DNA of 64,000 bases. It comes from Candidatus Collierbacteria bacterium (GTDB taxonomy: Bacteria; Patescibacteriota; Microgenomatia; UBA1400; JACPES01). The translations under genes and the position numbers were made by a program. This document shows, one piece after another, positions 5,237-58,800 of the stretch (positions are counted from its first letter, which is position 1; each line of letters begins with the position of its first letter). Under the pieces are notes generated by a model. That model saw only the letters and a program-made list of their open reading frames with translations. It ran no database searches and had not been told where the DNA came from. The stretch spans positions 45,123 to 109,122 of the forward strand of contig JACRNH010000003.1 in NCBI GenBank assembly GCA_016219325.1. Reading direction: 5' to 3'.

Positions 5237-7036
5237 ATGGTTATGCAGGAGATTTCTAACAATCAAACAATCGCTCAAATGCTATTTGAGGTAGCCGCGG
5301 TTTTAGAAGTAACCGGAGGAGACAGGTTTAGAATCCGGGCATATCAAGAGGCTGCTAAATCCATCGAAAGTTATCCGGCAGAGATCCGCGATTTATGGGA
5401 ACATGGGAATTTGGGAGACGTTTCCAGCGTCGGCAAAGCCATTTCCGGTTATTTGGATGAATTTTTTAAAACAGGCAGAATAAAACATTTTGAGCCGATC
5501 ATAAAAAGAGTTCCTGCAGGAATGTTCCCTTTGCTAAATGTTAGCGGAATCGGTCCCAAGACAGCTTTTGCGCTTTCCAAAGAATTGGGACTGGTAAAGT
5601 CCAAGATGGCAGTTGCAAAACTTAAGAAGGCTGCTTTGGACGGTAAAATAGCCAAAATTGAGGGATTTGGGGAAGACTCGCAGGCCAAGATCTTGTCAGC
5701 AATCAAAGAATCCGAGTCCAGAGAAGACAAAATGCTTTTGCCTGTAGCTCGGGAACTGGCCGATAAAGTAATTGATTATCTAAAGAAGCAACCCGATGTT
5801 GTAAAAATTGAGGTATTAGGCAGCTTAAGAAGACAAATGGCTCTGGTCGGAGATATTGATATAGGAGTTGCCGCTTCAAATCCAAAGGAAATTACAGACT
5901 GGTTTATTAAATTCCCTGAATTCATAAAAATATTGGTGAGCGGGGACAAAGTTTGCCGGGCGGTTCACCGTACCGGAAGGCAAGTTGACTTAAAAATTGA
6001 GCCGGTTGAAAGTTTTGGTTCAATGCTGCAGCATTTTACCGGCAGTAAGGAGCATAATATCGCTTTGAGAGAATTGGCCCTGAAGAAAGGGTTGTCGTTG
6101 TCGGAGCATGGGATAAAGATAATGAGTAATGAGAAGAAAGTAATGAGCAATGATAAACAACTAGTAAATTTCAAAACGGAAGAGGAATTCTATAAAGCTC
6201 TTGGGATGGAGTGGATTCCGCCGGAGCTGCGGGAAAACAGGGGGGAGATTGAGGCTAGTAAAGAAGGTAAGTTGCCAGAACTGATAGGGTTATCAGATAT
6301 TAAAGGTGATTTTCATATCCATTCCGACTTTGACATTGAAACCAGTCATGATCTGGGGGTTTCGGGTTTAATTTATTTGACAAAAGAAGCTGAAAAAATG
6401 GGATACGAATTTATCGCCATATCTGATCACAATCCGTCTACTTCCCGGCATAATAATAAGCAAATAATTGACCTTATAAAGCGAAGAAATGAATATATTG
6501 ATAAATTTTTATCCTCGCGTGTGAACGTTGTGAAAATTAAATTATTTAAATCCCTCGAAATAGATATATCCGGCGATGGATCAATCGCTATTCCGGACGC
6601 GGCATTGGAACTTTTGGATTTTGTCATTGTCTCAATTCACAGTCAGTTTGTTGGTGACGAGAGCAAGCAAACGGCCAGAATTTTAAAAGCGCTTTCCCAT
6701 CCTAAAGTAAAAATTCTGGGCCATCCGACCGGTAGACAGCTGTTAAACCGGAACGGAATCAATTGCGATTGGGATCAGATATTTGATTATTGCGCCAAAA
6801 AGAATATTTGGCTGGAGGTGAATGGTAATCCGCATAGAATGGATTTGCCGGATCAGTTAATTCAGAAAGCTAAAGGTTTCGGAGTGAAATTTACAATTGG
6901 GACGGATAGTCATGCTTTTTCTCAAATGGAATACATGCCATCTGGCGTTTCTTTGGCTAGAAGGGGTTGGCTTGAGAAGAAAGATGTGATAAATTGTTTA
7001 GGATATAATGAAGTGAAGAAAGAATTTAATCCTTAA
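5237..7036 (+). CDS. polX: PolX-family DNA polymerase (Pol beta-like core plus C-terminal PHP domain)
   Basis: N-terminal HhH/pol-beta region and a C-terminal PHP motif (FHIHSDFD). The ORF-track start at 5168 overlaps tRNA-Asp, so ATG 5237 is used. It carries an in-frame AGTAATGAG-family repeat insert at 6120-6160 (KIMSNEKKVMSNDKQ). Confidence 0.8.
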   Translation: MVMQEISNNQTIAQMLFEVAAVLEVTGGDRFRIRAYQEAAKSIESYPAEIRDLWEHGNLGDVSSVGKAISGYLDEFFKTGRIKHFEPIIKRVPAGMFPLLNVSGIGPKTAFALSKELGLVKSKMAVAKLKKAALDGKIAKIEGFGEDSQAKILSAIKESESREDKMLLPVARELADKVIDYLKKQPDVVKIEVLGSLRRQMALVGDIDIGVAASNPKEITDWFIKFPEFIKILVSGDKVCRAVHRTGRQVDLKIEPVESFGSMLQHFTGSKEHNIALRELALKKGLSLSEHGIKIMSNEKKVMSNDKQLVNFKTEEEFYKALGMEWIPPELRENRGEIEASKEGKLPELIGLSDIKGDFHIHSDFDIETSHDLGVSGLIYLTKEAEKMGYEFIAISDHNPSTSRHNNKQIIDLIKRRNEYIDKFLSSRVNVVKIKLFKSLEIDISGDGSIAIPDAALELLDFVIVSIHSQFVGDESKQTARILKALSHPKVKILGHPTGRQLLNRNGINCDWDQIFDYCAKKNIWLEVNGNPHRMDLPDQLIQKAKGFGVKFTIGTDSHAFSQMEYMPSGVSLARRGWLEKKDVINCLGYNEVKKEFNP

Positions 7037-30852: not shown

Positions 30853-31260
30853 ATGTTACTCCATCTCTCTCTTGCTACTCCTCTTAAGAAAGTTTTAGAG
30901 ATTGACGAAGTTGAAATCGTTAATGCTCCGGCGGAAATGGGTGACGTTGGAATTTTGCCGAATCATGCTCCGTTTATGTCCAGACTTAAAGACGGGGTGA
31001 TAAATTACCGGATCGGGGGAAATAATTTTTATGTCGGAGTTAACGGAGCCTTTATGGATGTAGCCGAAAATCAGGTGACTATAATTTCTGAAGCCGCAAT
31101 TTTGCCGGAGGACGCTGATTTAAAAAGAGCTCAAGAAGCAAGGGATAGGGCGAAGGCTGAATTGGAAAAAAGACTGGAAGGAACAGATTTTAAGATGGTG
31201 GAAGCGGAGTTGAGAAAAGCGCTTTTAGAGATGAAATTATTGGAGCACGTTAAAAAATGA
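30853..31260 (+). CDS. atpC: F0F1 ATP synthase subunit epsilon
   Basis: Size, position and a beta-sandwich plus helical-hairpin pattern consistent with the epsilon subunit. Confidence 0.75.
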   Translation: MLLHLSLATPLKKVLEIDEVEIVNAPAEMGDVGILPNHAPFMSRLKDGVINYRIGGNNFYVGVNGAFMDVAENQVTIISEAAILPEDADLKRAQEARDRAKAELEKRLEGTDFKMVEAELRKALLEMKLLEHVKK

Positions 31261-31337
31261 GTAATGAGTAGAAAGTAATGAGTAATGAATAAAATAACAT
31301 TATTTTCTACTTTCTATTTTCTACTCATTATTTTTTT
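31259..31337. terminator. AGTAATGAG/TAGAAAGTA-family inverted-repeat hairpin followed by a T7 tract (a likely intrinsic terminator after atpC)
   Basis: GAGTAATGAGTAGAAAGTAATGAGTAATGAAT ... ATTATTTTCTACTTTCTATTTTCTACTCATTA then TTTTTTT immediately before the ruvC ATG. Confidence 0.6.
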
Positions 31338-32575: not shown

Positions 32576-32586
32576 ATGTGGATAAG

Positions 32587-32609
32587 TGTAAAGTATCAGA
32601 TACTTTACA
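32587..32609. repeat. Palindrome copy 4 (TGTAAAGTATC A GATACTTTACA), 12 nt upstream of the tnpA ATG
   Basis: Perfect 11-bp arms. Confidence 0.9.
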
Positions 32610-32696
32610 AGAAGACAAGATGCGAGAACGTCTATCGGTTGGATAGAACTATCGGGTGAGTAGAATAAAGCGACCAGAATAATAATTTTACGAAAT

Positions 32697-33149: not shown

Positions 33150-33719
33150 GTGATAGGGTTCCTTTCGGGAAAACTGCTTGAGTCTGATTTAAACACTATA
33201 ATTATTGATGTTTCGGGAGTGGGATATTTGGTTCATCCCTCAGCTTCTGTTTTCGGAAAAAATTTATCTGTTGGGGATAAAATTAATTTACCGGTTTATA
33301 CCCATGTCCGTGAAGATCAAATTACTTTATTCGGATTTTCATCAAAAGCAGAGTTAGACTTATTTAAGCAATTGCTGACAGTTTCCGGAGTCGGTCCGAA
33401 ATCGGCACTGACAATTATCGGCAGCGGCACAGCTCCTGAAATTAAATCAGCCGTTTCTAACGCCGATGTGGATTTTTTCCAATCAATTTCCGGAATCGGC
33501 AAAAAAACTGCCCAGAGGATAATTATTGATCTGAAAAGTAAAATCGGTGAAACCAAAGAATTGGATTTGTCATCAACTGACATCAAACATCGGAAAGATT
33601 TGTTGTCTGCCCTAAAAACAATGGGAATTACTGCCGATGAGGTCAAAGACGTGATCAAAAATATTGACGCTAATTTGCCGATTCAGGAGCAGATCAGACT
33701 GGCGCTAAAAAGAATATGA
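33150..33719 (+). CDS. ruvA: Holliday junction branch migration protein RuvA
   Basis: N-terminal MIGFLSGKL...GVGY OB-fold start and HhH motifs ([18 protein letters not shown]). Confidence 0.85.
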
Positions 33720-34741
33720 AAGATCAGAAAACAGAGAGCAGAGAACAAAAAGCAGAAGAAATTTTTGATTCATCTCTCCGTCCGAGCAAATTTGACGAAT
33801 TTACCGGTCAGTCACGGGTAATTGAGAATTTAAAGGTTACAATTGAGGCGGCTAAAAACCGCAAAGAGCCTTTGGATCATTTGCTTTTATACGGACCTCC
33901 GGGGTTGGGAAAAACTACTCTTGCCCATATTATCGCGGCTGAAATGGGAGTGAATATCCGAATAACTTCAGGTCCGGCCATTGAAAGATCAGGCGATTTA
34001 GCCAGTATTTTAACCAATTTACAAGAGGGAGACATTTTATTTATTGATGAAGTCCACCGCTTGCATAAAGTTGTTGAGGAAATGCTTTATCCGGCAATGG
34101 AGGATTTCGCCTTGGATATTATTTTAGGAAAAGGTCCGTCTGCCCGGACCGTCAGGCTGGATCTGCCGAAGTTTACTTTAATCGGAGCCACCACCAGAGT
34201 CGGTTTGATCGGATCGCCGATGAGGGACAGATTTGGGATTATCCACCGCCTGAATTTTTATGAAGATGAGGAATTGTGCCATATTGTTAAGCGTTCATCT
34301 AGGCTATTGAAAATGGAAGTAGATCAAGAATCTGCTCTGGAAGTTGCCAAAAGAAGCAGGGGTACTCCCAGAATTGCCAATAGGCTTTTAAAACGTTCGC
34401 GTGATTTCAGCCAAGTCAGATTTAAGGGGCTGCTAAACAGAAATGTGGTTGACAAGGCTTTGCAATTAATGGGGGTGGATTTATTGGGATTGGATGAATC
34501 CGACAGAAGGATTTTATCGGCCATCATCAATAAACATGGCGGCGGACCGGTAGGAGTAGAAACGATTGCAGCCACAGCCCATGAAGACATCGGAACGATC
34601 GAAGATGTGTTTGAGCCGTTCCTGATGCAAATTGGATTTTTAAAACGGACTCCGCGGGGCAGGGTGGCGACAAAAAAAGCTTACCAACATCTTGGTTTAT
34701 CTTATCCTCAATCTGGCACAGGGCAGGAATCGTTGCTTTAA
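33716..34741 (+). CDS. ruvB: Holliday junction branch migration helicase RuvB
   Basis: [11 protein letters not shown] start, Walker A ([11 protein letters not shown]), Walker B (FIDEVHRL) and RuvB-C winged helix. It overlaps ruvA by 4 nt. Confidence 0.9.
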
Positions 34742-34742
34742 T

Positions 34743-34818
34743 GTCATTCCCGCGAAAGCGGGAATCTATATAAATAATTATCTTATCTACATAGATTCCG
34801 TGTCGAGCACGGAATGAC
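34743..34818. repeat. MITE/REP-like element (GTCATTCC-hairpin-GGAATCTAT ... ATAGATTCC-hairpin-GGAATGAC), full copy after ruvB
   Basis: GTCATTCCCGCGAAAGCGGGAATCTATATAAATAATTATCTTATCTACATAGATTCCGTGTCGAGCACGGAATGAC. Confidence 0.75.
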
Positions 34819-34827
34819 AATGACAAT

Positions 34828-35787: not shown

Positions 35788-36202
<415 letters not shown>

Positions 36203-36916
36203 ATGATATACATTTTGCATGGTGACAATATTGACGCCAGCCGGAAATCGTTTATTGAGACGATTGCTGAATTAAAAGCCGGCGGAATTGAAGAAGTCGT
36301 TAGATTAAACGGAGCAGAAATTGTCCAGTCCGATTTAATCCAGGCCTTAGAATCGCAAAGTCTTTTTGGCGGCGATAGAATTGTAGCTATAGAAGGCATA
36401 TTTTCCCGCCGCGTTTCCAAAGAGAAAGAAGCATTGTTAATATATATTTCTTCGCAACTCGCAACTGGCAATTCGCAATTAGCCCTTTTATTGTGGGAAG
36501 GAAAAAAGATTTTAGCAACCGGATTAAAAAAATTTACAGGTAAGCCTGGTGTGGAGATTAAAGAATTTAAATTGCCGCGGCTTTTATATACTTTTTTGGA
36601 CCGGATTTATCCCAAAAACGGGAAATCGGCTTCCGTCATATTTAATCAACTGATAGCCGAAGAGCCGGTTGAATTAGTTTTTTATTGGATGGTAAAACGG
36701 ATAACGGAATTGATTCTGGAAAATTCGCCATCAGGATCCGGCGGCGGTTATGACGATTGGAGAAGGCAAAAATTAATGGATCAGGCGTCAAGGTGGACCG
36801 AAAAAAGTTTAATTAATTTTCATAAAAAATTAACAGAAATTGATGAAGCCGTTAAAACCGGCTCCACCCCATCGGATTTATCATCCCACCTTGACATTGC
36901 CTTGTTAAGTTTGTAG
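36203..36916 (+). CDS. holA: DNA polymerase III delta subunit-like (HolA-like) protein
   Basis: N-terminal IYILHGDN...SLFGGDRIVAI pattern resembling clamp-loader delta. At 237 aa it is short. Confidence 0.45.
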   Translation: MIYILHGDNIDASRKSFIETIAELKAGGIEEVVRLNGAEIVQSDLIQALESQSLFGGDRIVAIEGIFSRRVSKEKEALLIYISSQLATGNSQLALLLWEGKKILATGLKKFTGKPGVEIKEFKLPRLLYTFLDRIYPKNGKSASVIFNQLIAEEPVELVFYWMVKRITELILENSPSGSGGGYDDWRRQKLMDQASRWTEKSLINFHKKLTEIDEAVKTGSTPSDLSSHLDIALLSL

Positions 36917-40096: not shown

Positions 40097-41069
40097 ATTT
40101 CCTGAATAATTTAAGGTCGGTTTTAACCACTGAATTCCAACCGGGGGTTAAGTTGTGGTCGGCTCCGGGATATTGATAGAGTACGGCATCTTTCTTCAGC
40201 GACTGTAAATTGCTGATTAGATCCATAGACCATTTCCACGGGACCGCTTCGTCGCCGGTGCCCTGATGAACAATCAGCGGAGTTTCTATCCGGTCAAGAT
40301 AATTGGTCGGGGAAAACAGTTCCGGATCATAAATTGACTCAAAATCGGCAATAACTTTCCGCAGGTATTTTCCGTGGTCGTCTGAATCATCCGTATAGTA
40401 AAGAATTGAATAAGGAAAAGGTTTGGAGACCGGGGCCCAAAAAGTAGCCGCCTTAAATTTATTGGTGACAGCCAGAACGGAAAGCCCGATCTGCCCGCCA
40501 TTGGAATGCCCCCATAAAAATATATTTCCCGTATCCGCCACTTGCAGATTGGAAATTGATGCTAATAATTGGAGAACGGTTGCCGGTTTGATCAGGCGGG
40601 ACTCAATTTCGTTTTCCGGTTCCGGATCCGAACTGCCGAACCCCAAAAAATCCGGAGCTAAAGTTATAAATCCGTTGCCGGCGAAAAACTCAGCCGCTCT
40701 TTGGGTTCCGATTCCGGGCTTATAGATTTCTTTGTCGACATATCCCCGCAGCATAATTATCACCGGACATTTTTGTTTAGAAGAAGAACCGTAGCCAACC
40801 GGAATGTTGGCAGTTCCGCTGACCAAGCCTTCTTGGGTATCAAATGTAAATTGGCCGTCTGTCAGAGAGATAGCCTTGGGGGTAAAAACGGATTGTTTCA
40901 AACCGTCAAATGAATATTTAAGCAAAGGCCGTGGGATTGTGGTTGGAGCTGAGGATAAGGGGGACAGGGACAGTCCTCCGATCAGCATCCCAATGACAAA
41001 TAAACAAAACAAGAGAAAGTATTGTTTCATTTTTTTCTTAAGCATTAAGTATACAGCTTTCATTGTCAT
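40074..41069 (-). CDS. Alpha/beta-hydrolase (dienelactone hydrolase / prolyl oligopeptidase-like), membrane-anchored
   Basis: N-terminal TM, nucleophile elbow GHSNGG (GxSxG), and downstream Asp/His (GTGDEAVP...ADHNL). Confidence 0.7.
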   Translation of the reverse strand: MTMKAVYLMLKKKMKQYFLLFCLFVIGMLIGGLSLSPLSSAPTTIPRPLLKYSFDGLKQSVFTPKAISLTDGQFTFDTQEGLVSGTANIPVGYGSSSKQKCPVIIMLRGYVDKEIYKPGIGTQRAAEFFAGNGFITLAPDFLGFGSSDPEPENEIESRLIKPATVLQLLASISNLQVADTGNIFLWGHSNGGQIGLSVLAVTNKFKAATFWAPVSKPFPYSILYYTDDSDDHGKYLRKVIADFESIYDPELFSPTNYLDRIETPLIVHQGTGDEAVPWKWSMDLISNLQSLKKDAVLYQYPGADHNLTPGWNSVVKTDLKLFRKFTSPSGL

Positions 41070-41123
41070 TCCTGCGAAAGCAGGAATCTATTTAAATAGA
41101 TTCCGGATCAAGTCCGGAATGAC
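41065..41123. repeat. MITE/REP-like element copy (GTCATTCCTGCGAAAGCAGGAATCTATTTAAATAGATTCCGGATCAAGTCCGGAATGAC)
   Basis: Same termini and centre as the 34743 copy, with compensatory substitutions in both internal stems. Confidence 0.8.
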
Positions 41124-41169
41124 AAAATCGAGATTGAACTTTGGAATCTAATAAGGTATTCTAAATACA

Positions 41170-50399: not shown

Positions 50400-52169
50400 A
50401 TGAAATCTGAAATATCCATTAAAGTCGGCGGGCCGGCCGGGGCGGGGGTTAAATCAGTCGGGCAGATATTGGCTAAAACTTTACAAAGATCTGGTTTTCA
50501 GGTATTTGAGTATCCGGAATATCCGAGTTTAATCCGCGGCGGGCATAATACTGAATTGGTGCAGGCTTCACTCGGAGAAAAATATTCCCTCACAAAACCG
50601 GTGGATTTACTGATCGCTCTTGACGATAAAACCCTGAAATTAGATTTGCCGGAAGTTGTTTCCGGCGGAATGGTAATTTTCGATTCCAAAATTGAATTTA
50701 AGCCAAGTCCCTCCAAAATTATCTATTTATCTATTCCGCTGTCTGATATCGCTCAAAAATTAGGAAATCCGTTGATGGCCAATGTAGTGGCGGTTGGCGC
50801 GGGATTGAAAGTCATGGGATTAAGTACTTTAATGACATCCAAATTGCTGACTGATCAGTTTTTTAAAAAAGGCCCTGATGTTGTCGCGGCAAATATTAAA
50901 GCCCTCGAAGCCGGTTGGAACTTTGTTAAAGAAAAAGGCTTCAAACCTATTTTGGATTCTGTGGATGTGAAGCCTTCAAATAATTTAATGATGACTGGAA
51001 ACGAAGCATTATCTTTAGGAGCAATCTCTGCCGGATTGGGTCTGTACGCCGCGTATCCGATGACTCCGTCAACCCCGATTCTGCATTATTTATCTGCTCA
51101 TCAGCAGGAATTTGGGTACGTTGTCCGGCAGGCGGAAGACGAAATATCCGCCGTCAATATGATAATAGGCGCGATGCACATGGGCGTGAGGGCGATGTGC
51201 GGAACTTCCGGCGGGGGATTTGCTTTAATGAACGAATCTTTGGCTTTAGCGGGGATGACGGAAACGCCGTTGGTAGTTGTCCTTGTTCAACGTCCGGGTC
51301 CGGCGACCGGCTTGCCAACCTGGACTGAACAGGGAGAACTGCAATACGCGATTCATGCCGCTCATGGGGAATTTTTAAAATTTGTTTTAGCCCCCGGGGA
51401 TAACAGGGAAATATTCCAAATGGCTTTTGAAGCTTTTAATTTAGCGGAAAGATATCAGACGCCGGCGATTATTATGCTGGATAAATTTCTATCGGAATCT
51501 TCCATGACCTGCGGAAACTTATTTCCCGACAAATTTACCATTGACAGAGGTAAAATTTCTGATCCGCTTAAATTAAAAAGGACACAAAATTATCAGCGTT
51601 ATCAGTTAACGGACGACGGTATTTCCGAAAGAAGTTTGCCGGGAATGGAAGGTGGAGTATTTTGCGCTAACTCCGACGAGCATGAGTACCATGGACTGGT
51701 TGACGAATCTTCTTCAATGAGAATTTGGCAAGTTGATAAGAGATTAAAGAAAATGGATGCGGCAGCAAAAATGATGCCGGGACCTAAATTTATTGGACCA
51801 AAGAACGCTAAAATTACCATTGTGGCTTGGGGATCGGGAAAATTGGCAGGGATAGAAACGATGGAGATGATAAACAATGAGCAGAAAACAAAGAACAATG
51901 AACAAAGAGTCAAAAACAGAGTAAACGTTTTACACTTTAGCTACCTCTGGCCGATGAATGTCAAGGCGGTAAGCGAAGCTCTGAAAAATTGCGCTCCTTC
52001 AACGTTATTGATTGAGCAAAATGCAACCGGACAATTTCAGGCATTATTAAAAGAGCAAATTGGTTGGGAACCAACGGCCCATTTAAGGAAGTACGATGGC
52101 AGGCCTTTTTACGCGGAAGAAATTATTGGAAAGATTGATAAATTAGTTAATGGATTAATGGATTCATGA
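50400..52169 (+). CDS. 2-oxoacid:ferredoxin oxidoreductase, fused gamma-alpha subunit
   Basis: N-terminal gamma domain (IKVGGPAGAGVKSVGQIL) and alpha domains I-II. There is an in-frame repeat insert at 51874-51930 (NEQKTKNNEQRVKNRV). Confidence 0.8.
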   Translation: MKSEISIKVGGPAGAGVKSVGQILAKTLQRSGFQVFEYPEYPSLIRGGHNTELVQASLGEKYSLTKPVDLLIALDDKTLKLDLPEVVSGGMVIFDSKIEFKPSPSKIIYLSIPLSDIAQKLGNPLMANVVAVGAGLKVMGLSTLMTSKLLTDQFFKKGPDVVAANIKALEAGWNFVKEKGFKPILDSVDVKPSNNLMMTGNEALSLGAISAGLGLYAAYPMTPSTPILHYLSAHQQEFGYVVRQAEDEISAVNMIIGAMHMGVRAMCGTSGGGFALMNESLALAGMTETPLVVVLVQRPGPATGLPTWTEQGELQYAIHAAHGEFLKFVLAPGDNREIFQMAFEAFNLAERYQTPAIIMLDKFLSESSMTCGNLFPDKFTIDRGKISDPLKLKRTQNYQRYQLTDDGISERSLPGMEGGVFCANSDEHEYHGLVDESSSMRIWQVDKRLKKMDAAAKMMPGPKFIGPKNAKITIVAWGSGKLAGIETMEMINNEQKTKNNEQRVKNRVNVLHFSYLWPMNVKAVSEALKNCAPSTLLIEQNATGQFQALLKEQIGWEPTAHLRKYDGRPFYAEEIIGKIDKLVNGLMDS

Positions 52170-52194: not shown

Positions 52195-53041
52195 GCCATC
52201 TTTAAATTCATTTAATACTTCCATCTTTCCCACCTGGTGTCCGGGGTGCGGGGATTTTGGAATTTGGGGAGCGTTAAAACAAGCCCTGGAATCATTAAAA
52301 ATAAATCCGGATCAAGCGGCATTTTTTTTCGGAGTCGGTTGTTCTGGAAACATTTCCAGTTTTATCAGAGGTTATGGTTTTCATTCACTTCACGGCCGGA
52401 GTATTGCCAATGCCGCCGGGGCTAAACTGGCTAATTATAAACTTCCTGTTATCGTAATCGCCGGTGACGGTGATATGTTGGGAGAAGGCTTAAGCCATTT
52501 TATTCACGCTGCCCGGGCCAATCATGACATTACAATAATTTTACATAATAATGGGGTATTTGGATTAACAACCGGCCAATCCTCGCCTACTGCCGAAATC
52601 GGATTTAAATCAAAACCGATGCCTTGGGAAACTACGGATGAACCGATAAACCCTTGCGCTCTGGCAATTATGCAGCAGGCCGGATTTGTATCACGGGGCT
52701 TTGCCGGGGATCAGGAAGGCTTATCCAATTTGATCAATCAGGCGATCAATCATTCGGGCTTTTCATTGGTTGATGTTCTTCAGCCCTGTGTTACATTTAA
52801 TCCGGATAAATCATACATTTGGTACAGGCAGAGAATAAAGTCTGTTGAGTCTGTTACAAGCGATGTTTTGACCGGGATTAAAAATTCATTATGGATTGAC
52901 GAGCGAATATCAACCGGAATTATTTATCAAAACTCAAGGCCCGCGTTCCATTCTAACTATCCACAATTGGTTAAAGATAATCTATTGGATACGACCGGGA
53001 AAAAGAGAGATATAAGTAAATTGCTGAATGGATTTAAATAG
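52193..53041 (+). CDS. 2-oxoacid:ferredoxin oxidoreductase beta subunit (TPP-binding)
   Basis: N-terminal Cys cluster (CPGCGDFG) and a TPP-binding GDG-(X)n-N motif (GDGDMLGEG...LHNNGVFGLTTGQ). Confidence 0.8.
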   Translation: MPSLNSFNTSIFPTWCPGCGDFGIWGALKQALESLKINPDQAAFFFGVGCSGNISSFIRGYGFHSLHGRSIANAAGAKLANYKLPVIVIAGDGDMLGEGLSHFIHAARANHDITIILHNNGVFGLTTGQSSPTAEIGFKSKPMPWETTDEPINPCALAIMQQAGFVSRGFAGDQEGLSNLINQAINHSGFSLVDVLQPCVTFNPDKSYIWYRQRIKSVESVTSDVLTGIKNSLWIDERISTGIIYQNSRPAFHSNYPQLVKDNLLDTTGKKRDISKLLNGFK

Positions 53042-53064
53042 ATTCCCGCTTTCGCGGGAATGAC
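53038..53064. repeat. MITE/REP-like half element (ATAGATTCCCGCTTTCGCGGGAATGAC) after the oxidoreductase beta gene
   Basis: Matches the right half of the 34743 element, with the stem in the complementary orientation. Confidence 0.7.
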
Positions 53065-53066
53065 AG

Positions 53067-53696
53067 TTAATTAACCACAGGGTGGAATTTGCGGATAACG
53101 CCCACAACTTTTCCCTGAACTCTGACGCGGGTGGCGAAAATCGGCTGCATCTGGGAGTTTGCCGGTTCCAGCCTGATTCTGGTGGCTTCGCGGAAAAATC
53201 TTTTTAAGGTGGCCAATCCATTGTCTAAAAGGGCAACGACTATGTCTCCGTTATGAACCTCATCCTGTTCTTCAACGACTACATAATCTCCGTCAAGAAT
53301 TCCATCGTCAATCATTGATTGGCCTTTGACTTTTAAAACGTAAGCCCGGCGTTTTCCGGATAACATGTCAGGCGAAATGGATAGCGTAGTATGAGGATCT
53401 GCAAACGGGACAATCGGCGATCCGGCAGCGATAAATCCCATTACAGGCAATTCTACTCCGGTTGAAGTTTTGGAAATCTTGCGGTCGATTAATTCGATTC
53501 CGCGGACGGTGCCTTCATACTTTTTAATAATTCCTTTTCTGATTAAAGCTTCTAAATGTTCGTGGACTGTGGCTAAAGAAGTGACTCCCAATGCTATGGC
53601 AATTTCCTGTAAAGTAGGGGAATATCCGTGCTGCTGGATATATTGTGATAAAAATTCTACAATTTGTCTTTGGCGTCTGTAAAGTGTTACTGGCAT
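53067..53696 (-). CDS. lexA: LexA repressor
   Basis: N-terminal winged HTH and a C-terminal S24 peptidase (GDYVVVEEQDEVHNGDIVVALLDN, with catalytic Ser/Lys). It is divergent from uvrB. Confidence 0.85.
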   Translation of the reverse strand: MPVTLYRRQRQIVEFLSQYIQQHGYSPTLQEIAIALGVTSLATVHEHLEALIRKGIIKKYEGTVRGIELIDRKISKTSTGVELPVMGFIAAGSPIVPFADPHTTLSISPDMLSGKRRAYVLKVKGQSMIDDGILDGDYVVVEEQDEVHNGDIVVALLDNGLATLKRFFREATRIRLEPANSQMQPIFATRVRVQGKVVGVIRKFHPVVN

Positions 53697-53776: not shown

Positions 53777-56005
53777 ATGTTTAAACTACATTCACCATAT
53801 CAACCGACGGGGACACAACCGCAGGCAATTGCCAAACTTTCTGAATTGATTTCCGGAGGAAACCGGCATCAAACCCTGCTCGGGGTGACCGGTTCCGGCA
53901 AAACATTTGTGACGGCAAATGTTATCGCTAAACTTAATAAACCGACTTTGGTTATCGCCCACAATAAAACTTTAGCCGCTCAATTGTATCAGGAGTATAG
54001 GGATTTTTTCCCGGAAAACGCGGTTTCCTATTTTGTCAGCTATTACGACTATTATCAGCCGGAGGCCTATATTCCCCAGACCGACACTTATATCGAAAAG
54101 GAAACAGATATAAATGAAATGATTGATAAATTGAGGTTAAAAGCCACCGCCAATCTGGTTTCCCGCCGAGATGTGATAGTTGTTGCTTCCGTTTCTTGCA
54201 TTTATAACTTGGGAGAACCGCAGGAATATTTAAAGAGAGTTTTGAAATTGAGTCTGGGCCAGAAAATCACTTTGAGAGAGCTATCCGAAAAACTAGTTGA
54301 TTTAATGTACGTAAGATCGCAGATGGAATTATCAAGGTCAAACTTTAGAATCAGAGGAGACTGTTTGGATATCTGGCCGGCATACGAGGATTCGGTATTG
54401 AGAATTGAGATTGTGTCAGACAAAATAAAATCGATTTGTTGGCTCGACCCTATTTCTCTATTTCCTGATCCAAAACTAATAACTAATAACCAACAACCAA
54501 CAACTGTTGCTATTTACCCCGCCAAACACTACATTGCCGATTCTAAAGATATGCTGCCGGTATTTGCCCGGATTAGAAATGACCTGCGTTTAAGGGCAAA
54601 ACAATTAGAGGCAGGCGGCCGTGATCTGGAGGCAAAAAGATTGGTTCAAAAAGTGGAATATGATTTAGCGATGATTCAGGAATTGGGATACGTCAACGGG
54701 ATTGAAAATTATTCCCGTTACTTTGACCACCGTAATCCCGGCGATCCGCCATTTACTTTATTGGACTATTTTAAACAGTGCGATCCGAATTTTTTAACGG
54801 TTATTGACGAATCCCACATCACTCTTCCGCAGATAAAAGGAATGTTTAAAGGCGACCAGTCACGGAAACAAACATTGATTGATTTTGGTTTTAGATTGCC
54901 GGCTGCAATGGATAACCGGCCATTGCAATTTGATGAATTTTTGGGAAGAGTTAATCAGACGATTTATACGTCGGCAACGCCGGGAGATTGGGAGTTGGCA
55001 AAAAGCAATGAGCAGAAAACAAAGAGCAATGAGCAAAGAACAAATAGCAACAGAGTTGTGGAATTGTTGGTTAGACCGACGGGATTGATTGACCCGGAAA
55101 TTGAGGTTAGAAACGCCCAAAATCAGGTTCCGGATTTGGTGATGGAAATTTTAAAGCGCAAAGCCAAGAATGAGCGGGTTCTGGTGACGACTTTGACAAA
55201 AAAAACCGCTGAAGCCCTGGCTGAATATTTATCGGATGAAAATAAATTAAAAACTGTTATCGGTTCTCGGTCATCGGATTTCGGTTACCAGTCTTCCGGT
55301 TATCAGTTTGCCGGTCTTAAGACCGATAGACTGAAAACAGATAAACCTGAGACTGAAAACAGAAAACTGAAAACCGATAACAAATCTATATCTGATTTGC
55401 CCAAAGTGGCTTATCTCCACTCCGATATCAAAACCCTCGACCGTCAGGATACTTTGGATAAGTTGAGAAGGGGAGAAGTGGACGTGATTGTCGGGATCAA
55501 CCTATTGCGGGAAGGTTTGGATCTACCGGAAGTATCACTGGTTGCGATATTAGACGCCGATCAGGAAGGATTTTTAAGAAGCAAGACGAGCTTAATCCAA
55601 ACTATGGGGAGAGCCGCTCGTCATATTGACGGAAAAGTTATTCTTTATGCCTATAAAATCACCGATTCAATGAGCGAAGCGATTGATGAATCTGAAAGAA
55701 GACGGAAGGTTCAGATTGAATATAACTTGAAGCATAATATTTTCCCAAAGGGGATAAATAAGCCGGTGAGGGAGAAGTTAGTTGATAGAAGTCAGGAATT
55801 GGTGGCTGAAATTGATTTGCCGAAAGGAATCTCCAATAGATACGGGGTTAAAAAATTGGATGATTTAGATTTGAATTCTTTGTCTCCGCAGGATAAACAG
55901 TCAATGATCAAACATTTAAGAAAACAAATGCTGTCTGCCGCCGATAAACTAAACTTCGAAAAGGCGGCTGAAATTAGAGATAAAATCACAGAAATGAAAA
56001 GTTAA
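53777..56005 (+). CDS. uvrB: Excinuclease ABC subunit B with two in-frame repeat inserts
   Basis: Walker A (GVTGSGKTFV), helicase motifs and a C-terminal UvrB/UvrC interaction motif (EKAAEIRDKI). The inserts are at 55003-55060 and 55255-55385. Confidence 0.9.
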   Translation: MFKLHSPYQPTGTQPQAIAKLSELISGGNRHQTLLGVTGSGKTFVTANVIAKLNKPTLVIAHNKTLAAQLYQEYRDFFPENAVSYFVSYYDYYQPEAYIPQTDTYIEKETDINEMIDKLRLKATANLVSRRDVIVVASVSCIYNLGEPQEYLKRVLKLSLGQKITLRELSEKLVDLMYVRSQMELSRSNFRIRGDCLDIWPAYEDSVLRIEIVSDKIKSICWLDPISLFPDPKLITNNQQPTTVAIYPAKHYIADSKDMLPVFARIRNDLRLRAKQLEAGGRDLEAKRLVQKVEYDLAMIQELGYVNGIENYSRYFDHRNPGDPPFTLLDYFKQCDPNFLTVIDESHITLPQIKGMFKGDQSRKQTLIDFGFRLPAAMDNRPLQFDEFLGRVNQTIYTSATPGDWELAKSNEQKTKSNEQRTNSNRVVELLVRPTGLIDPEIEVRNAQNQVPDLVMEILKRKAKNERVLVTTLTKKTAEALAEYLSDENKLKTVIGSRSSDFGYQSSGYQFAGLKTDRLKTDKPETENRKLKTDNKSISDLPKVAYLHSDIKTLDRQDTLDKLRRGEVDVIVGINLLREGLDLPEVSLVAILDADQEGFLRSKTSLIQTMGRAARHIDGKVILYAYKITDSMSEAIDESERRRKVQIEYNLKHNIFPKGINKPVREKLVDRSQELVAEIDLPKGISNRYGVKKLDDLDLNSLSPQDKQSMIKHLRKQMLSAADKLNFEKAAEIRDKITEMKS

Positions 56006-56026
56006 ATGTTATCTTTGTCATTCCGT

Positions 56027-56083
56027 GCTTGACACGGAATCTATACAGATTTCATCTCAAGGCTGGAATGGCATAAATATCCT
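56027..56083. repeat. MITE/REP-like element copy after uvrB (left half intact, right half degenerate)
   Basis: GTCATTCCGTGCTTGACACGGAATCTATACAGATTTCATCTCAAGGCTGGAATGGCA. Confidence 0.7.
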
Positions 56084-56109: not shown

Positions 56110-58800
56110 ATGGAAAACTATATTGAGGTTATTGGGGCCAAACAACATAATCTTAAGAATATCAGTGTTAAAATTCCCAAGAATAAACTGACGGTGATTA
56201 CGGGTGTATCGGGGAGCGGGAAGTCATCACTGGCGTTTGATACCATTTTTGCCGAAGGTCAAAGGCGGTATGTTGAGTCTTTATCTTCATATGCCAGGCA
56301 ATTTTTAGGGGTAATGAACAAACCGGACGTGGATAAGATTATCGGCTTGTCTCCGGCGATTGCCATTAACCAAAAAGCGGTTTCCAGCAATCCCAGAAGC
56401 ACTGTCGGAACTGTGACAGAAATCTATGATTATTTAAGAGTGTTATATTCCCGCGCCGGCCATCCTCATTGCGAAAAATGCGGCCGGGAAGTTAAACGCC
56501 AGTCCGTTGATCAAATTTCCGATTCAATTTTGGATCAGGCTAAATTATCGGCAGTTGGCCAAAAACCTTGCCTAATCGAAATATTTTCACCAATTATTGT
56601 TGATAAAAAGGGTGAATTTACCCAACTGTTTGAATCGTTGCGCCGGGATGGTTTTAAAGATGTTACCGTTGACGGCCAGAAGTTCAATCTTAATCATAAT
56701 TTTGTTTTAATCAAAACCAACCGCCACACCATAGAATTATCCGTTGATAAAATTTCAGTCACTAAAAAAGATTTTAAAAATCCTGACGGGCTTAAACTTA
56801 TTTCATCAAGGCTCTCTGAAACTGTTGAAATAGCTTCAAAAAAGTCAGGCGGGACGCTGCTGATCCAATTTGACGGTAAAGACAAAACTCTATTTTCCCA
56901 AAGCTTCGCCTGCCCAGTTTGCAATATCTCCCTGCCTGACATTGAGCCGCGGAGTTTTTCGTTTAACACCCCTTACGGGGCTTGTCCCGAATGCGATGGA
57001 TTAGGGACAATTCTTTCGGCCGATCCTGAAGCAGAAGAAAAAATTCCTAATTTGTTAAACCGTTATCTGGAAACCGACAATGAGGCAGTCAGAAAACGCT
57101 TAATCCCGTTTATCATAACCTCCGTTTGCCCCAGTTGTAATGGACAAAAGCTTAACAAAATTTCCAGAAATGTTACTGTGGCCGGAAAAAATATTGCCGA
57201 GATATCAAATTTAGCTGTTAAAGACTGTTTAAGCTTTATTGAGAAGCTTAATAAATCAGATGCCTTTTCGCCTCAAGAATCAGCGGTTTCAACTCCGATT
57301 GTCCGGGAACTTTCGATCAGATTAAAATTTTTAATTGACGTTGGTCTGGAATATTTAACTTTAGGCAGGACAGCCTCTTCTCTTTCATCCGGAGAAGCTC
57401 AAAGAATCAGGCTGGCTTCGCAAATCGGGACAGGTTTAACAGGGGTTTTATATGTTTTGGACGAGCCGACGATTGGCTTGCATCAACGGGATAATTCAAA
57501 ATTAATTCAGATTTTAAAATCATTAAGAGACTTGGGAAATACAGTCTTGGTAGTTGAACATGATCAGGAAACCATAGAAAACGCGGATTGGATGATTGAA
57601 ATCGGTCCAAAGGCCGGGAAAAATGGCGGGGAAATCATCGCGGAAGGAACAGTTGAAGATATTAAAAATAATAAAAAATCGTTGACTGGGGATTATTTGG
57701 CAGGAAGGAAGAAAGTAGAAATACAAAAGGTTAAAAGGTTAGAAGGTTACAAGGCTAATAAAATAGATTTTTCAACCTGCCAACCTGCCAACCTGCCAAC
57801 CTTAGAGTCCATTAAGCTCTCCGGCGCCTCCCAGCATAATTTAAAATCAGTTGACGTTGAATTCCCAATGGGCAAATTCATTTGCGTCACAGGCGTGTCA
57901 GGATCAGGAAAATCAACTTTGGTTCATGACACCCTTTATCATGCTCTTGCCCGAAGATTAAACCGCTATCATCACACCACTCCGGGAAAATTTGAAAGTT
58001 TTTCATTGCCGAATACCGTTAGCCAGGTCAGTTTGATTGATCAAAGCCCGATTGGGCGAACGCCGAGATCTAATCCGGCTACATACAGCGGAGTATTTGA
58101 CTATATCCGCCAAATTTTCAGCCAAACAAAAGAATCTAGAATCAGAGGATGGAAATCAGGCCGTTTCAGTTTTAACATCCCGGGAGGCAGATGCGAAACC
58201 TGTGAAGGCCAAGGACAAATAAAAGTTGAAATGCAGTTTATGCCGGATGTCTATGTTATCTGTGACGACTGTAAGGGAACAAGGTTTGGGCGTGAGACAT
58301 TAGAAGTCGTTTATTCCGGTAAAAATATTGCCGAAATTTTAAATTTAACCATAAATGAGGCCTGCGAAATGTTTGCCGGCTTTCCGGCCCTAAAATCAAG
58401 GTTGTTAATGTTAAGATCCGTAGGTTTAGGTTATTTAAGCTTAGGCCAGCCGGCGACAATTTTATCCGGCGGAGAAGCCCAAAGGATGAAATTATCCCGG
58501 GAGTTGGGGAAAATCAGGTCAGCCCATACTATATATTTACTGGATGAACCAACCACCGGGCTTCATTTTGACGATTTGCAGAAACTGATCGAAGTTTTAT
58601 TGAAACTTGTAAATCAAAATAATACCGTAATTGTGGTTGAGCACAATCTGGACGTTATCAGAAACGCCGAATGGATAATTGATCTTGGGCCCGAAGGCGG
58701 GGATGAGGGAGGAGAGATCGTTGCTGTCGGAACGCCGGAGCAAATAGCAAATAATCCTAAAAGTTATACTGGAAGATATCTCAAAAAACTAATAAACTAA
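56110..58800 (+). CDS. uvrA: Excinuclease ABC subunit A with an in-frame hairpin-forming insert in the inter-module linker
   Basis: Two ABC ATPase modules (GVSGSGKSSLAFDT; GVSGSGKSTLVHDT), zinc fingers (CPVCNISL, CETCEGQG) and ABC signatures. The insert is at 57726-57812. Confidence 0.9.
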   Translation: MENYIEVIGAKQHNLKNISVKIPKNKLTVITGVSGSGKSSLAFDTIFAEGQRRYVESLSSYARQFLGVMNKPDVDKIIGLSPAIAINQKAVSSNPRSTVGTVTEIYDYLRVLYSRAGHPHCEKCGREVKRQSVDQISDSILDQAKLSAVGQKPCLIEIFSPIIVDKKGEFTQLFESLRRDGFKDVTVDGQKFNLNHNFVLIKTNRHTIELSVDKISVTKKDFKNPDGLKLISSRLSETVEIASKKSGGTLLIQFDGKDKTLFSQSFACPVCNISLPDIEPRSFSFNTPYGACPECDGLGTILSADPEAEEKIPNLLNRYLETDNEAVRKRLIPFIITSVCPSCNGQKLNKISRNVTVAGKNIAEISNLAVKDCLSFIEKLNKSDAFSPQESAVSTPIVRELSIRLKFLIDVGLEYLTLGRTASSLSSGEAQRIRLASQIGTGLTGVLYVLDEPTIGLHQRDNSKLIQILKSLRDLGNTVLVVEHDQETIENADWMIEIGPKAGKNGGEIIAEGTVEDIKNNKKSLTGDYLAGRKKVEIQKVKRLEGYKANKIDFSTCQPANLPTLESIKLSGASQHNLKSVDVEFPMGKFICVTGVSGSGKSTLVHDTLYHALARRLNRYHHTTPGKFESFSLPNTVSQVSLIDQSPIGRTPRSNPATYSGVFDYIRQIFSQTKESRIRGWKSGRFSFNIPGGRCETCEGQGQIKVEMQFMPDVYVICDDCKGTRFGRETLEVVYSGKNIAEILNLTINEACEMFAGFPALKSRLLMLRSVGLGYLSLGQPATILSGGEAQRMKLSRELGKIRSAHTIYLLDEPTTGLHFDDLQKLIEVLLKLVNQNNTVIVVEHNLDVIRNAEWIIDLGPEGGDEGGEIVAVGTPEQIANNPKSYTGRYLKKLIN

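What the first reader, a model, noticed from the sequence alone, without database searches (positions are those of the whole stretch)
51874..51930. Same ~50-nt sequence inserted in frame in two unrelated conserved genes (oxidoreductase alpha here, and uvrB at 55003-55060)
In the oxidoreductase alpha gene the segment CAATGAGCAGAAAACAAAGAACAATGAACAAAGAGTCAAAAACAGAGT encodes NEQKTKNNEQRVKNRV. In uvrB the segment CAATGAGCAGAAAACAAAGAGCAATGAGCAAAGAACAAATAGCAACAGAGT at 55003-55060 encodes NEQKTKSNEQRTNSNRV. The two differ only by a few substitutions and a 3-nt indel, so reading frame is kept. Neither UvrB nor OFOR alpha proteins normally carry such a low-complexity segment at these positions. This points to a small mobile or templated element that inserts into coding sequence and survives only where the frame is preserved. 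The Rickettsia palindromic elements behave similarly.
Basis: seen in the sequence. Interest (0 to 1): 0.85.

Follow-up and report, generated by a model that had tools for sequence, protein, structure and literature searches.

The report
Heptamer repeat arrays invading conserved genes
Two unrelated housekeeping genes of a small groundwater bacterium (Candidatus Collierbacteria) carry almost the same 50-base in-frame insert, which belongs to a family of short 7-base repeat arrays that fill this lineage's genomes, form hairpins between genes, and are repeatedly copied into tolerant loops of essential proteins.

Summary
Window 51875-51922 (2-oxoacid:ferredoxin oxidoreductase alpha) and 55006-55056 (uvrB) share an exact 20-mer and about 90% identity. 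Both are in frame, and both are absent from solved structures and from the sister genome L044.

It is not a discrete 50-nt element. Both segments are arrays of A-rich 7-nt units (AATGAGC/AGAAAAC/AAAGARC). The 64-kb window holds 61 short tandem arrays against about 12 in shuffles, and period 7 dominates.

The same family occurs:
- in frame in PolX and at the RuvB N-terminus in the window;
- paired with its own complement as terminator-like intergenic hairpins;
- in metagenomes, in frame in deformylase, GyrA, YchF, TrmD, glycosyltransferases and others;
- antisense, as hydrophobic segments, in membrane proteins.

Both sites are hot spots. Orthologs are empty or hold other arrays or hairpins. In a second genome (L013) the two sites again match each other, with a genome-specific variant. 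The same two array types recur at the oxidoreductase site in clades only 62% identical.

Best reading: a dispersed heptamer-array family spread and homogenised by templated copying between sites, then filtered by selection. The copying step is inferred, not shown. It resembles the Rickettsia elements in behaviour but is not one. I found no description of this in these bacteria.

The parts
51875..51922 (+). A-rich heptamer array (AATGAGC AGAAAAC AAAGAAC AATGAAC AAAGAGT CAAAAAC AGAGT) in frame in the oxidoreductase alpha gene; encodes NEQKTKNNEQRVKNRV. The site is 36 nt longer than the empty site of L044.
55006..55056 (+). Near-identical heptamer array in frame in uvrB ('site 1', between helicase motif III SATP and RPTGL); encodes NEQKTKSNEQRTNSNRV. 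The site is 36 nt longer than the empty sites of L010, L043 and L044.
50250..52169 (+). Host gene 1: 2-oxoacid:ferredoxin oxidoreductase alpha (gamma-alpha fusion).
53777..56005 (+). Host gene 2: uvrB. It carries four repeat-derived stretches at three insertion sites.
6114..6156 (+). Related array (TAATGAG TAATGAG AAGAAAG TAATGAG CAATGAT) in frame in the PolX thumb; encodes MSNEKKVMSND, about 10 aa extra versus PDB 3au2_A.
33719..33757 (+). Related array (AAAGAGC AGAAAAC ...) forming the N-terminus of RuvB; encodes [13 protein letters not shown].
31249..31337 (.). Intergenic hairpin (atpC-ruvC spacer). An AATGAGT/AGAAAGT array pairs with its own complement and is followed by a T run. Folding energy -29.2 kcal/mol, z -7.0.
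44710..44804 (.). Intergenic hairpin of the same unit family (enolase-iPGM spacer). Folding energy -32.6 kcal/mol, z -7.2.
36146..36199 (+). Single-arm AGAAAGT x7.7 array filling the spacer upstream of gene 36203-36916.
54474..54505 (+). uvrB 'site 0': AACTAAC/AACCAAC array encoding ITNNQQPTT. It is the reverse complement of the arrays at 387-416 and 20085-20114, and the same family that fills the oxidoreductase site in L010 and L050.
   Evidence: (I22)
55255..55382 (+). uvrB 'site 2': 64+64-nt abutting inverted repeat built from short arrays, read in frame as part of a 55-aa insert between EYLSD and KVAYLHSD. Folding energy -51.4 kcal/mol, z -7.2. This is the closest analogue of a Rickettsia palindromic element in the window.
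   Evidence: (I2)

Best explanation
The two segments are copies of one dispersed family of short arrays (about 30-50 nt) of A-rich 7-nt units, in a Collierbacteria genome crowded with such arrays. Shown: the arrays sit between genes, often paired with their complement as hairpins, and inside many conserved genes at a few tolerant sites. Inferred: copies are created and kept alike by templated copying from one array-bearing or A-rich site to another, by ectopic gene conversion or replication template switching primed by microhomology. Array length then changes by slippage. Also inferred: selection keeps only copies that leave the frame open, which means multiples of 3 nt, often 21 nt (3 units). 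It favours the A-rich strand as sense in soluble proteins, giving hydrophilic N/E/Q/K/T loops, and the T-rich strand in membrane proteins. The uvrB copy in this genome most likely derives from, or was overwritten by, the oxidoreductase array 3.1 kb upstream or a close family member.
For: - **Repeat-rich genome:** 61 arrays in 64 kb against 12.4 +/- 3.9 in triplet shuffles. 26 have period 7, against none in 50 kb of E. coli.
- **Copying rather than convergence:** the exact 20-mer spans three different unit variants in the same order. The alignment scores 64 against a shuffle maximum of 36.
- **Same array in many places:** it occurs at 25 or so distinct loci in genomes and metagenomes.
  - It is in frame in Pfam-verified Wzy_C, deformylase, GyrA, YfhO, YchF, GT1 and TrmD.
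  - It is antisense (FVFCSLL) in membrane proteins.
  - It forms intergenic hairpins with its own complement (L003, L018, L024).
- **Concerted evolution:**
  - In L013, and independently assembled L014, the oxidoreductase and uvrB sites share AACAAGAARCAAGAAACAGGA, a variant absent from the window.
  - Within-genome identity between the two sites is 0.90 and 0.85. Between-genome identity at the same site is 0.80 and 0.61-0.76.
- **Hot spots with turnover:**
  - L044 has both sites empty. L010 has a different array in the oxidoreductase and an empty uvrB site. L042 has other arrays and hairpins.
  - Deformylase genes of two near-identical strains carry different arrays at one site.
- **Recurrent rewriting:** both array types occur at the oxidoreductase site in two clades that are only 62% nt-identical.
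- **Array conservation:** the array is 91% identical between window and L012, against 77.5% for the rest of the gene (top 1.8% of windows).
- **Length steps:** orthologous arrays differ by 21 nt.
- **Strand bias:** the sense strand is A-rich in 31 of 36 in-gene arrays. The T-rich exceptions include two in membrane or N-terminal hydrophobic contexts.
- **Structure:** the insert sites overlap low-confidence stretches of the UvrB model (pLDDT below 50 at 235-238, 414-424, 500-539).
- **Microhomology:** the empty uvrB site AAAGACAATGG resembles the array units AAAGAACAATGA.
Against: - No copying event was observed, and the donor cannot be named. Only 64 kb of the genome and fragments of relatives were available.
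- The window and L012 uvrB arrays differ by 21%, which is no more than the gene background. A clustered conversion is therefore suggested but not proven.
- Three features are not predicted by conversion plus selection alone, and could point to function or to a dedicated mechanism:
  - nucleotide conservation of the family across genes 62% identical;
  - a modal array length of about 33 nt;
  - a 10:1 bias for one of the two open frames.
- Many copies end sharply at ...AATGA, as a discrete element would.
- Hot spots could reflect insertion preference rather than only tolerance.
Confidence: 0.6

Rival explanations
1. A discrete non-autonomous mobile element (MITE-, REP- or RPE-like) is cut or copied and inserted by a transposase, for example the REP-associated tyrosine transposase encoded in the window.
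For: - Many metagenomic copies share the same 28-35-nt unit order and end sharply at ...AATGA.
- Genome-specific variants appear at many unrelated loci.
- A RAYT-like gene lies at 31847-32574 (Pfam Y1_Tnp E 2.7e-7; NCBIfam REP_Tyr_transpos E 4.5e-17). Its own palindrome is inserted in frame twice within it.
- Hairpin elements with defined ends exist, such as 12558-12646 and 14013-14117.
Against: - There are no terminal inverted repeats and no target duplications at filled versus empty sites.
- Unit number and order vary between copies.
- The two arrays are unstructured (z +1.1 and +0.5), whereas Y1/RAYT substrates are hairpins.
- The palindrome flanking the RAYT-like gene is an unrelated sequence confined to that locus (D6).
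- No other transposase, integrase or reverse transcriptase was found among the ORFs of 70 aa or more scanned in the window.
Confidence: 0.15
2. A dedicated templated-synthesis activity (a polymerase, primase or reverse-transcriptase-like enzyme using a short template) writes arrays of about 33 nt made of 7-nt units into DNA at breaks or gaps. The family consensus would then be set by the template rather than by descent.
For: - The modal array length is 31-37 nt whatever the unit.
- The same array core is conserved across genes only 62% identical and across several CPR lineages.
- Whole arrays are replaced between near-identical strains.
Against: - There is no candidate enzyme or template in the window.
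- Many different unit families coexist, which would need many templates.
- There is no precedent in bacteria.
Confidence: 0.1
3. Each array arose independently in place, by replication slippage from an A-rich native seed. The resemblance would then be convergence of low-complexity sequence.
For: - The empty sites are A-rich and resemble units (AAAGAC AATGGG; AATAAGAAAGAT).
- Arrays change length in 21-nt steps.
- Heptamer repeats are known to be slippage-prone (PMC4679880, citing Mrazek 2007).
Against: - Three distinct unit variants occur in the same order over an exact 20-mer, with chance expectation 0.01.
- The alignment score is far beyond composition-matched shuffles.
- The same array occurs in more than 10 unrelated genes.
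- A second genome shows a matching pair with its own variant.
Confidence: 0.05
4. The insert is a selected peptide module (an NEQKT-type linear motif or linker) acquired for a function in the proteins.
For: - Frame bias: 8 Pfam- or PDB-verified genes plus 2 long ORFs read N-E-Q-K-T, against 1 (TrmD) that reads M-S-R-K-Q.
- The array is more conserved than its host gene.
Against: - The same DNA is intergenic, is antisense in membrane proteins and forms hairpins.
- Sister genomes lack it or carry unrelated arrays at the same site.
- Parts of each insert are modelled with low confidence.
- Identity extends to synonymous positions.
Confidence: 0.05
5. It is an assembly or binning artefact, or a diversity-generating retroelement target.
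For: The sequence is a metagenome-assembled genome, and the arrays are adenine-rich.
Against: - Independent assemblies reproduce the arrays: L012 and L020, L013 and L014, L010 and L011.
- The ORFs stay intact.
- No reverse transcriptase was found among the ORFs scanned in the window.
- Differences between copies are not confined to adenines.
Confidence: 0.02

Closest known systems
Rickettsia palindromic elements (RPE; 'selfish DNA in protein-coding genes')
   Same: Both are dispersed repeats found in intergenic DNA and, in frame, inside conserved housekeeping genes. Both show lineage-specific proliferation (PMC1779305). The 128-nt in-frame palindrome at uvrB 55255-55382 behaves the same way.
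   Different: RPEs are 100-150 bp palindromic elements with defined families. The two segments of the finding are 48-51 nt, non-palindromic and unstructured, and are built of 7-nt units of variable number. They also occur in a different phylum.
Dispersed heptanucleotide tandem repeats: cyanobacterial STRR, TAACTGA repeats of Beggiatoaceae/Cyanobacteria/Bacteroidetes, GGGAATC repeats of Xanthomonas/Nostoc; long simple sequence repeats of Mrazek 2007
   Same: All have 7-nt units in short arrays of 2-6 or so units. The same unit recurs at many loci, mostly close to gene ends. Occasional copies lie inside ORFs, and no spreading mechanism is known (PMC4679880, PMC4692102). TAACTGA-type arrays (read as SVISS and ITDN) also occur in CPR UvrB orthologs.
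   Different: In those organisms the repeats are under-represented in coding sequence or sit at protein termini. Here 45 of 61 arrays lie within ORFs, many in the interior of essential enzymes. The units are A-rich and imperfect. Arrays pair into long hairpins, and copies at different loci share the order of unit variants.
Borg tandem repeats that create disordered regions in proteins
   Same: Both are A-rich, rapidly evolving repeats that add low-complexity, probably disordered, segments to proteins (PMC9879509).
   Different: In-ORF Borg repeats have unit lengths divisible by three, are perfect and arise independently in place. Here the units are 7 nt, the frame is kept only by total length (21-nt steps), and the same array is shared among loci.
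REP elements with REP-associated tyrosine transposases (RAYT)
   Same: Both are short dispersed repeats near gene ends. A RAYT-like gene flanked by its own palindromes is present in the window, with two in-frame copies inside it.
   Different: REPs are 20-40-nt hairpins with a conserved tetranucleotide tag. The arrays of the finding form no hairpin on their own and do not resemble the RAYT-linked palindrome.

Membership tests
Rickettsia palindromic element (RPE)-type element | Length about 100-150 bp | tested here: not met
   The segments are 48 and 51 nt, and the sites are 36 nt longer than empty sites.
Rickettsia palindromic element (RPE)-type element | Palindromic, hairpin-forming sequence | tested here: not met
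   Folding energies are -0.5 and -3.7 kcal/mol, z +1.1 and +0.5. By contrast uvrB 55250-55390 folds at -51.4 kcal/mol, z -7.2.
Rickettsia palindromic element (RPE)-type element | Dispersed copies in both intergenic and coding DNA, with coding copies in frame | tested here: met
Rickettsia palindromic element (RPE)-type element | Sequence similarity to RPE family models | not testable with these tools
   No RPE models were available. The organism is a Collierbacteria.
Dispersed heptanucleotide repeat arrays (STRR / long simple sequence repeat / TAACTGA-like) | Tandem unit of 7 nt, several units per array | tested here: met
   Tandem Repeats Finder gives period 7 x3.1 and period 14 x3.4 at 51872-51918, and period 7 x8.1 and period 21 x2.5 at 54998-55055.
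Dispersed heptanucleotide repeat arrays (STRR / long simple sequence repeat / TAACTGA-like) | Many arrays of the same unit family spread over the genome, in excess of chance | tested here: met
   61 arrays against 12.4 in shuffles, 26 with period 7. Family D2/D5/D7 occurs at 6114, 31249, 36146, 44711, 51862 and 54993.
Dispersed heptanucleotide repeat arrays (STRR / long simple sequence repeat / TAACTGA-like) | Predominantly intergenic, rare inside ORFs | tested here: not met
   45 of 61 arrays are more than 90% inside ORFs. The remaining 16 arrays (intergenic or overlapping gene ends) compare with about 8% non-coding sequence, roughly 3-fold enriched.
MITE | Terminal inverted repeats and target-site duplication | tested here: not met
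   The arrays have no inverted termini. Filled versus empty alignments show no duplication.
REP/RAYT system | 20-40-nt hairpin repeat clustered around and recognised by a RAYT | tested here: not met
   The RAYT-like gene is flanked by TGTAAAGTATCWGATACTTTACA, which is unrelated to the arrays. Recognition itself is not testable here.
In-place amino-acid tandem repeats (Borg-type) | Unit length divisible by three; independent origin at each locus | tested here: not met
   The unit is 7 nt, and the same array is shared among loci.
Diversity-generating retroelement target | Template/variable repeat pair with adenine-specific differences and a nearby reverse transcriptase | tested here: not met
   No reverse transcriptase was found among the ORFs of the window. 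Substitutions include G>A and T>C. The rest of the genome was not examined.

The most novel reading that the evidence does not exclude
CPR bacteria of the Collierbacteria group possess an active, sequence-specific process that writes arrays of about 33 nt, made of 7-nt units, into chromosomal DNA. The process could be a dedicated enzyme or a template-directed repair pathway. It would repeatedly re-target the same sites, so that terminator hairpins and new disordered loops in essential proteins are generated by one mechanism and kept to a family consensus across species.
Probability: 0.12. Interest if true: 0.9.

Novelty: new variant of a known kind. Interest (0 to 1): 0.6.

Why it matters
CPR/Patescibacteria genomes are taken as models of extreme streamlining. 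Yet this one tolerates, at about one per kilobase, short repeat arrays inside genes such as uvrB, uvrA, gatB, dnaE, polX and ruvB. In relatives the same applies to gyrA, def, trmD and ychF.

If the pattern holds genome-wide, it has four consequences:
- It extends the 'selfish DNA in protein-coding genes' phenomenon, classically tied to Rickettsia, to a free-standing bacterial radiation and to a different kind of repeat.
- It provides a natural record of which loops of universal enzymes tolerate insertions.
- It offers a tractable case of concerted evolution of very short sequences.
- It explains part of the length inflation and low-complexity inserts seen in CPR proteins, which matters for annotation, structure prediction and phylogenetic alignment of these lineages.

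Tried and rejected
- **Rfam:** the gathering-threshold scan of the whole window found only five tRNAs and nothing at the arrays.
- **Viral contigs:** the array pattern has no match there, so there is no evidence for phage carriage.
- **Representative genomes:** the source genome is not in the collection. The scan gave 9 hits, of which L005 (H+-pyrophosphatase) and L009 (RtcB) are native or chance matches. A true genome-wide count was therefore not possible.
- **Extending the window:** one look-up gave only 5.7 kb on the right (L046) with no further copy. The look-up for the left side found nothing on record.
- **PARCEL repeats (PMC2996958):** considered and rejected. They are 25-residue amphipathic protein repeats in surface proteins, not 7-nt units.
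- **LexA binding:** lexA lies between the two genes, so I considered whether the arrays could be LexA boxes. I judged by eye, without a scan, that the arrays contain no palindromic SOS-box-like motif, and dropped the idea.
- **Direction of copying (oxidoreductase to uvrB):**
  - For: the unique NRVV in this UvrB where every other aligned ortholog has G at that position (NGVV/NGIV and variants), the AACAGAGT junction shared with the oxidoreductase array, and L012-like units in the uvrB copy.
  - Against: the uvrB copy is closer to the family consensus (AGC endings). A third donor cannot be excluded.
- **Literature:** five full-text searches found no description of such arrays in CPR/Patescibacteria. 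Absence from this library is not proof of novelty.
Full report
**1. The observation**

The two segments exist as quoted. CAATGAGCAG...ACAGAGT lies at 51875-51922 inside ORF 50250-52169 and reads NEQKTKNNEQRVKNRV. Its counterpart lies at 55006-55056 inside ORF 53777-56005 and reads NEQKTKSNEQRTNSNRV.

- They share an exact 20-mer found nowhere else in the window. Chance expectation is 0.01 matches.
- Their local alignment scores 64, against a maximum of 36 in 2000 composition-matched shuffles. Identity is 45/50.
- The host genes are uvrB (PDB 9gy7_E, E 4.8e-209) and a 2-oxoacid:ferredoxin oxidoreductase alpha/gamma fusion (6n2n_A, E 4.9e-79).
- In both PDB alignments the segment falls opposite a gap.
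- The genome is a Candidatus Collierbacteria, from the candidate phyla radiation (CPR, also called Patescibacteria). The identical UvrB and oxidoreductase proteins are on a 123,865-nt NCBI contig.

**2. What the segments are made of**

Tandem Repeats Finder reports both segments as imperfect arrays of period 7/14/21. The units are AATGAGC, AGAAAAC, AAAGARC and AAATAGC.

The window as a whole is crowded with such arrays:
- There are 61 merged arrays in 64 kb (0.95 per kb), against 12.4 +/- 3.9 in triplet-shuffled controls and 0.28 per kb in 50 kb of E. coli.
- 26 arrays have period 7 (none in the E. coli sample), and most others have period 8-10.
- Median array length is 33 nt.
- Syntenic loci of sister genomes show the same density.
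- 45 of the 61 arrays lie within ORFs. The hosts are Wzy_C, PolX, an M48 peptidase, ClpB, GatCA, GatB, DnaE, CTP synthase, AtpA, RuvB, PPDK, UvrA, UvrB, the oxidoreductase and a transglutaminase-like protein.
- The remaining 16 arrays (intergenic or overlapping gene ends) compare with the 8% of the window that is non-coding.

**3. The family of the finding**

The repeat search groups the two segments with arrays at 6114-6156, 31249-31291, 36146-36199 and 44711-44753 (families D2/D5/D7).

- The copy at 6114 is in frame in the PolX thumb (MSNEKKVMSND). It adds about 10 residues relative to 3au2_A.
- A related array forms the RuvB N-terminus.
- The copies at 31249 and 44711 are intergenic. Each is followed by its own reverse complement and a T run, giving long AT-rich hairpins (-29 and -33 kcal/mol, z about -7).
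- 8 of 26 intergenic spacers fold this strongly.
- The intergenic units start with T (TAATGAG, TAGAAAG) and so carry stop codons. The in-gene units have C or A at that position.
- The two arrays of the finding have no structure of their own (z +1.1 and +0.5).

**4. Are they insertions, and where?**

An alignment of 25 UvrB orthologs and codon-level comparison of syntenic loci give the following picture.

- The site after SATPxxWE is empty in L010, L043 and L044 (81 nt between anchors).
- The same site is 15 nt longer in L012, 21 nt longer in L013, 36 nt longer in the window and 174 nt longer in L042. The L042 insert is a nested hairpin.
- The oxidoreductase site is empty in L044 and in distant CPR orthologs. 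It is 36 nt longer in the window and L012, 57 nt longer in L049, and 21 nt longer in L013.
- In L010 and L050 that site is filled by an unrelated AACTAAC-type array, and in L042 by a GGCTAAG array.

uvrB has two further hot spots. Site 0 (54474-54505) holds an AACTAAC array. Site 2 holds a 64+64-nt abutting inverted repeat read in frame (55255-55382; -51.4 kcal/mol, z -7.2). In sister genomes site 2 holds other hairpins. One of these, in L013, is an in-frame copy of the GTCATTCCCGYGAAAGYGGGAATCTATATAAAT element that sits at gene ends in the window.

An AlphaFold2 model of UvrB (mean pLDDT 68.5) has pLDDT below 50 at residues 235-238, 414-424 and 500-539. These stretches fall within the three insert sites, and the start of the site-1 insert is modelled as part of helix 404-415.

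**5. Dispersal beyond this genome**

The pattern AATGAGCAGAAAACANNNRRCAAWRA was scanned against two collections.

- It hit 9 stretches in representative genomes. These came from Collierbacteria, Chisholmbacteria, Saganbacteria and some array-rich genomes labelled Pseudomonadales, plus two native or chance matches.
- It hit 27 metagenomic stretches.

After removing duplicates:
- The array is in frame, reading N-E-Q-K-T, in Pfam-verified Wzy_C, peptide deformylase, the GyrA C-terminal domain, YfhO, YchF and a GT1 glycosyltransferase, and in two further long ORFs.
- It reads M-S-R-K-Q in TrmD.
- It never uses the third sense frame, which contains TGA.
- It is antisense (FVFCSLL) inside two membrane proteins.
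- Elsewhere it is intergenic, often as a hairpin with its complement.
- Copies from one metagenome share the same order of units, about 28-35 nt, ending sharply at ...AATGA.

In the window, 31 of 36 in-gene arrays have the A-rich strand as sense. The T-rich exceptions include a Wzy_C membrane segment, an N-terminal hydrophobic segment and the first arm of the in-frame palindrome. This pattern suggests that selection filters insertions according to what the peptide would be.

**6. Evidence that copies do not evolve independently**

(a) In L013 the oxidoreductase and uvrB sites again match each other (AACAAGAARCAAGAAACAGGA, 21 nt). This variant is absent from the window and is reproduced in an independent assembly, L014. 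Within-genome identity between the two sites (0.90 and 0.85) exceeds between-genome identity at the same site (0.80 and 0.61-0.76).

(b) The oxidoreductase array is 91% identical between window and L012 (49/54), against 77.5% for the rest of the gene. Only 1.8% of 54-nt windows are as similar.

(c) L048, whose gene is 62% nt-identical to the window's, carries AATGAGCAATGAGCAGAAAACAGGAAACAATGAGCAAAAAACA at the same site. The AACTAAC-type array is likewise shared by L010 and L050 across the same split. Two array types each present in both clades cannot come from one insertion followed by vertical descent.

(d) Two near-identical deformylase genes (L017 and L041) carry different arrays at one site, with identical flanks.

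(e) Orthologous arrays differ in length by 21 nt, which is three units.

(f) Relative to L012, the window's uvrB array differs by 6-7 clustered substitutions, five of them toward the oxidoreductase sequence. This UvrB alone has NRVV where every other aligned ortholog has G at that position, matching the oxidoreductase junction AACAGAGT. This looks like conversion, but the divergence is no higher than the gene background, so I treat it as suggestive.

**7. Mechanism**

Shown:
- a dispersed family of heptamer arrays;
- recurrent occupation and replacement at a few sites;
- non-independent evolution of copies;
- retention patterns that depend on frame and strand.

Inferred:
- Copies are made and homogenised by templated copying between sites, through ectopic gene conversion or replication template switching.
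- Microhomology would help. The empty uvrB site AAAGACAATGG resembles the array units AAAGAACAATGA.
- Slippage in 21-nt steps then changes array length.
- Selection does the filtering.

A transposase-driven element is the main rival. The window does encode a RAYT-like Y1 transposase. However, its flanking palindrome is a different sequence. The arrays also lack hairpins, inverted termini and target duplications. No reverse transcriptase, integrase or other transposase was detected among the ORFs scanned in the window.

Three features remain unexplained by conversion plus selection and keep a more novel reading open:
- the modal length of about 33 nt;
- the 10:1 bias between the two open frames;
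- conservation of the family consensus across deep splits.

**8. Comparison with known systems**

- **Rickettsia palindromic elements:** these are the closest in behaviour, being dispersed repeats in frame in housekeeping genes (PMC1779305). The two segments fail the length and palindrome criteria. Only the uvrB site-2 insert resembles an RPE in form.
- **Dispersed heptanucleotide repeats:** these are the closest in structure. They include cyanobacterial STRR, TAACTGA repeats and GGGAATC repeats (PMC4679880, PMC4692102). Those are mainly intergenic or at protein termini.

I found no description of this phenomenon in CPR bacteria in five full-text searches.

**9. Verdict**

The feature is real and far beyond chance. 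It is wrong in form, because this is a heptamer-array family rather than a discrete palindromic element, and the oxidoreductase insert is shared with related lineages. I rate it a new variant of a known kind, with interest 0.6.

Noticed in passing
window 31796-32610 (gene 31847-32574, minus strand): A REP-associated tyrosine transposase-like gene (HUH motif NHFHFLI, Tyr motif YIHINP; Pfam Y1_Tnp E 2.7e-7; NCBIfam REP_Tyr_transpos E 4.5e-17, below the curated cutoff). It is flanked by the palindrome TGTAAAGTATCWGATACTTTACA. Two more copies of that palindrome are inserted in frame inside the gene itself, reading PDCKVSDTLQH and ICKVSDTLQS.
   Followed up: partly
window 34732-34775, 34785-34842, 41059-41142, 53026-53075, 55993-56074; L013 11438-11602: A GC-stem hairpin family (GTCATTCCCGCGAAAGCGGGAATCTATWTAAAT) sits at gene ends and looks like terminators. 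In sister genome L013 one copy is read in frame inside uvrB at hot spot 2, encoding SIVIPVKVGIYINSS.
   Followed up: partly
window 12985-13016 and 13283-13315 (gatB): Two perfect heptamer arrays (AATTCAG x4.6, AAAGGAA x4.7) lie inside the essential gatB gene. The second adds 8-9 residues relative to PDB 3al0_B. Perfect 7-nt arrays in an ORF should be prone to frameshifts.
   Followed up: partly
L017 297-975 versus L041 516-1209: The peptide deformylase genes of two near-identical strains differ by wholesale replacement of one in-frame array (a GGGCTAA-type array against AAAAGTT plus ATCAACGC arrays), with identical flanks. A small cluster of SNPs upstream suggests recombination.
   Followed up: partly
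window 58833-58874, 636-677, 11288-11318: A 10-nt unit array (TTTTTGTACC x4) encodes the hydrophobic N-terminus of the transglutaminase-like protein. It is the reverse complement of the AAAGTACAAG arrays inside Wzy_C and GatCA.
   Followed up: no
window 12558-12646 and 14013-14117: Two copies of one hairpin element of about 90-100 nt (81% identical over both arms, TGATTTA/ATTCATA units) bracket gatB.
   Followed up: partly
window 57659-57802 (uvrA): Three adjacent short arrays (ATAATAAAA, AAAAGGTT, CAACCTGC) lie within uvrA and probably form another repeat-built insert. The AAAAGGTT array recurs at 29460-29502.
   Followed up: no
window 275-796 (Wzy_C-like gene 3-923): Five different arrays (periods 7-10) lie within 520 nt of one membrane-protein gene. 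The arrays at 387-431 and 424-495 recur at 20085-20129 and 13688-13750.
   Followed up: no
window 10962-12554: A single ORF combines a GatC domain (residues 21-91) and the GatA amidase domain (137-510), making a gatC-gatA fusion.
   Followed up: no
whole window: GC skew is positive in all but one (48001-50000) of the 2-kb windows and cumulative skew rises almost throughout. Most genes (46 of 61 called ORFs) are on the + strand, so the window lies on one replichore. Array lengths cluster at 31-37 nt whatever the unit sequence.
   Followed up: partly
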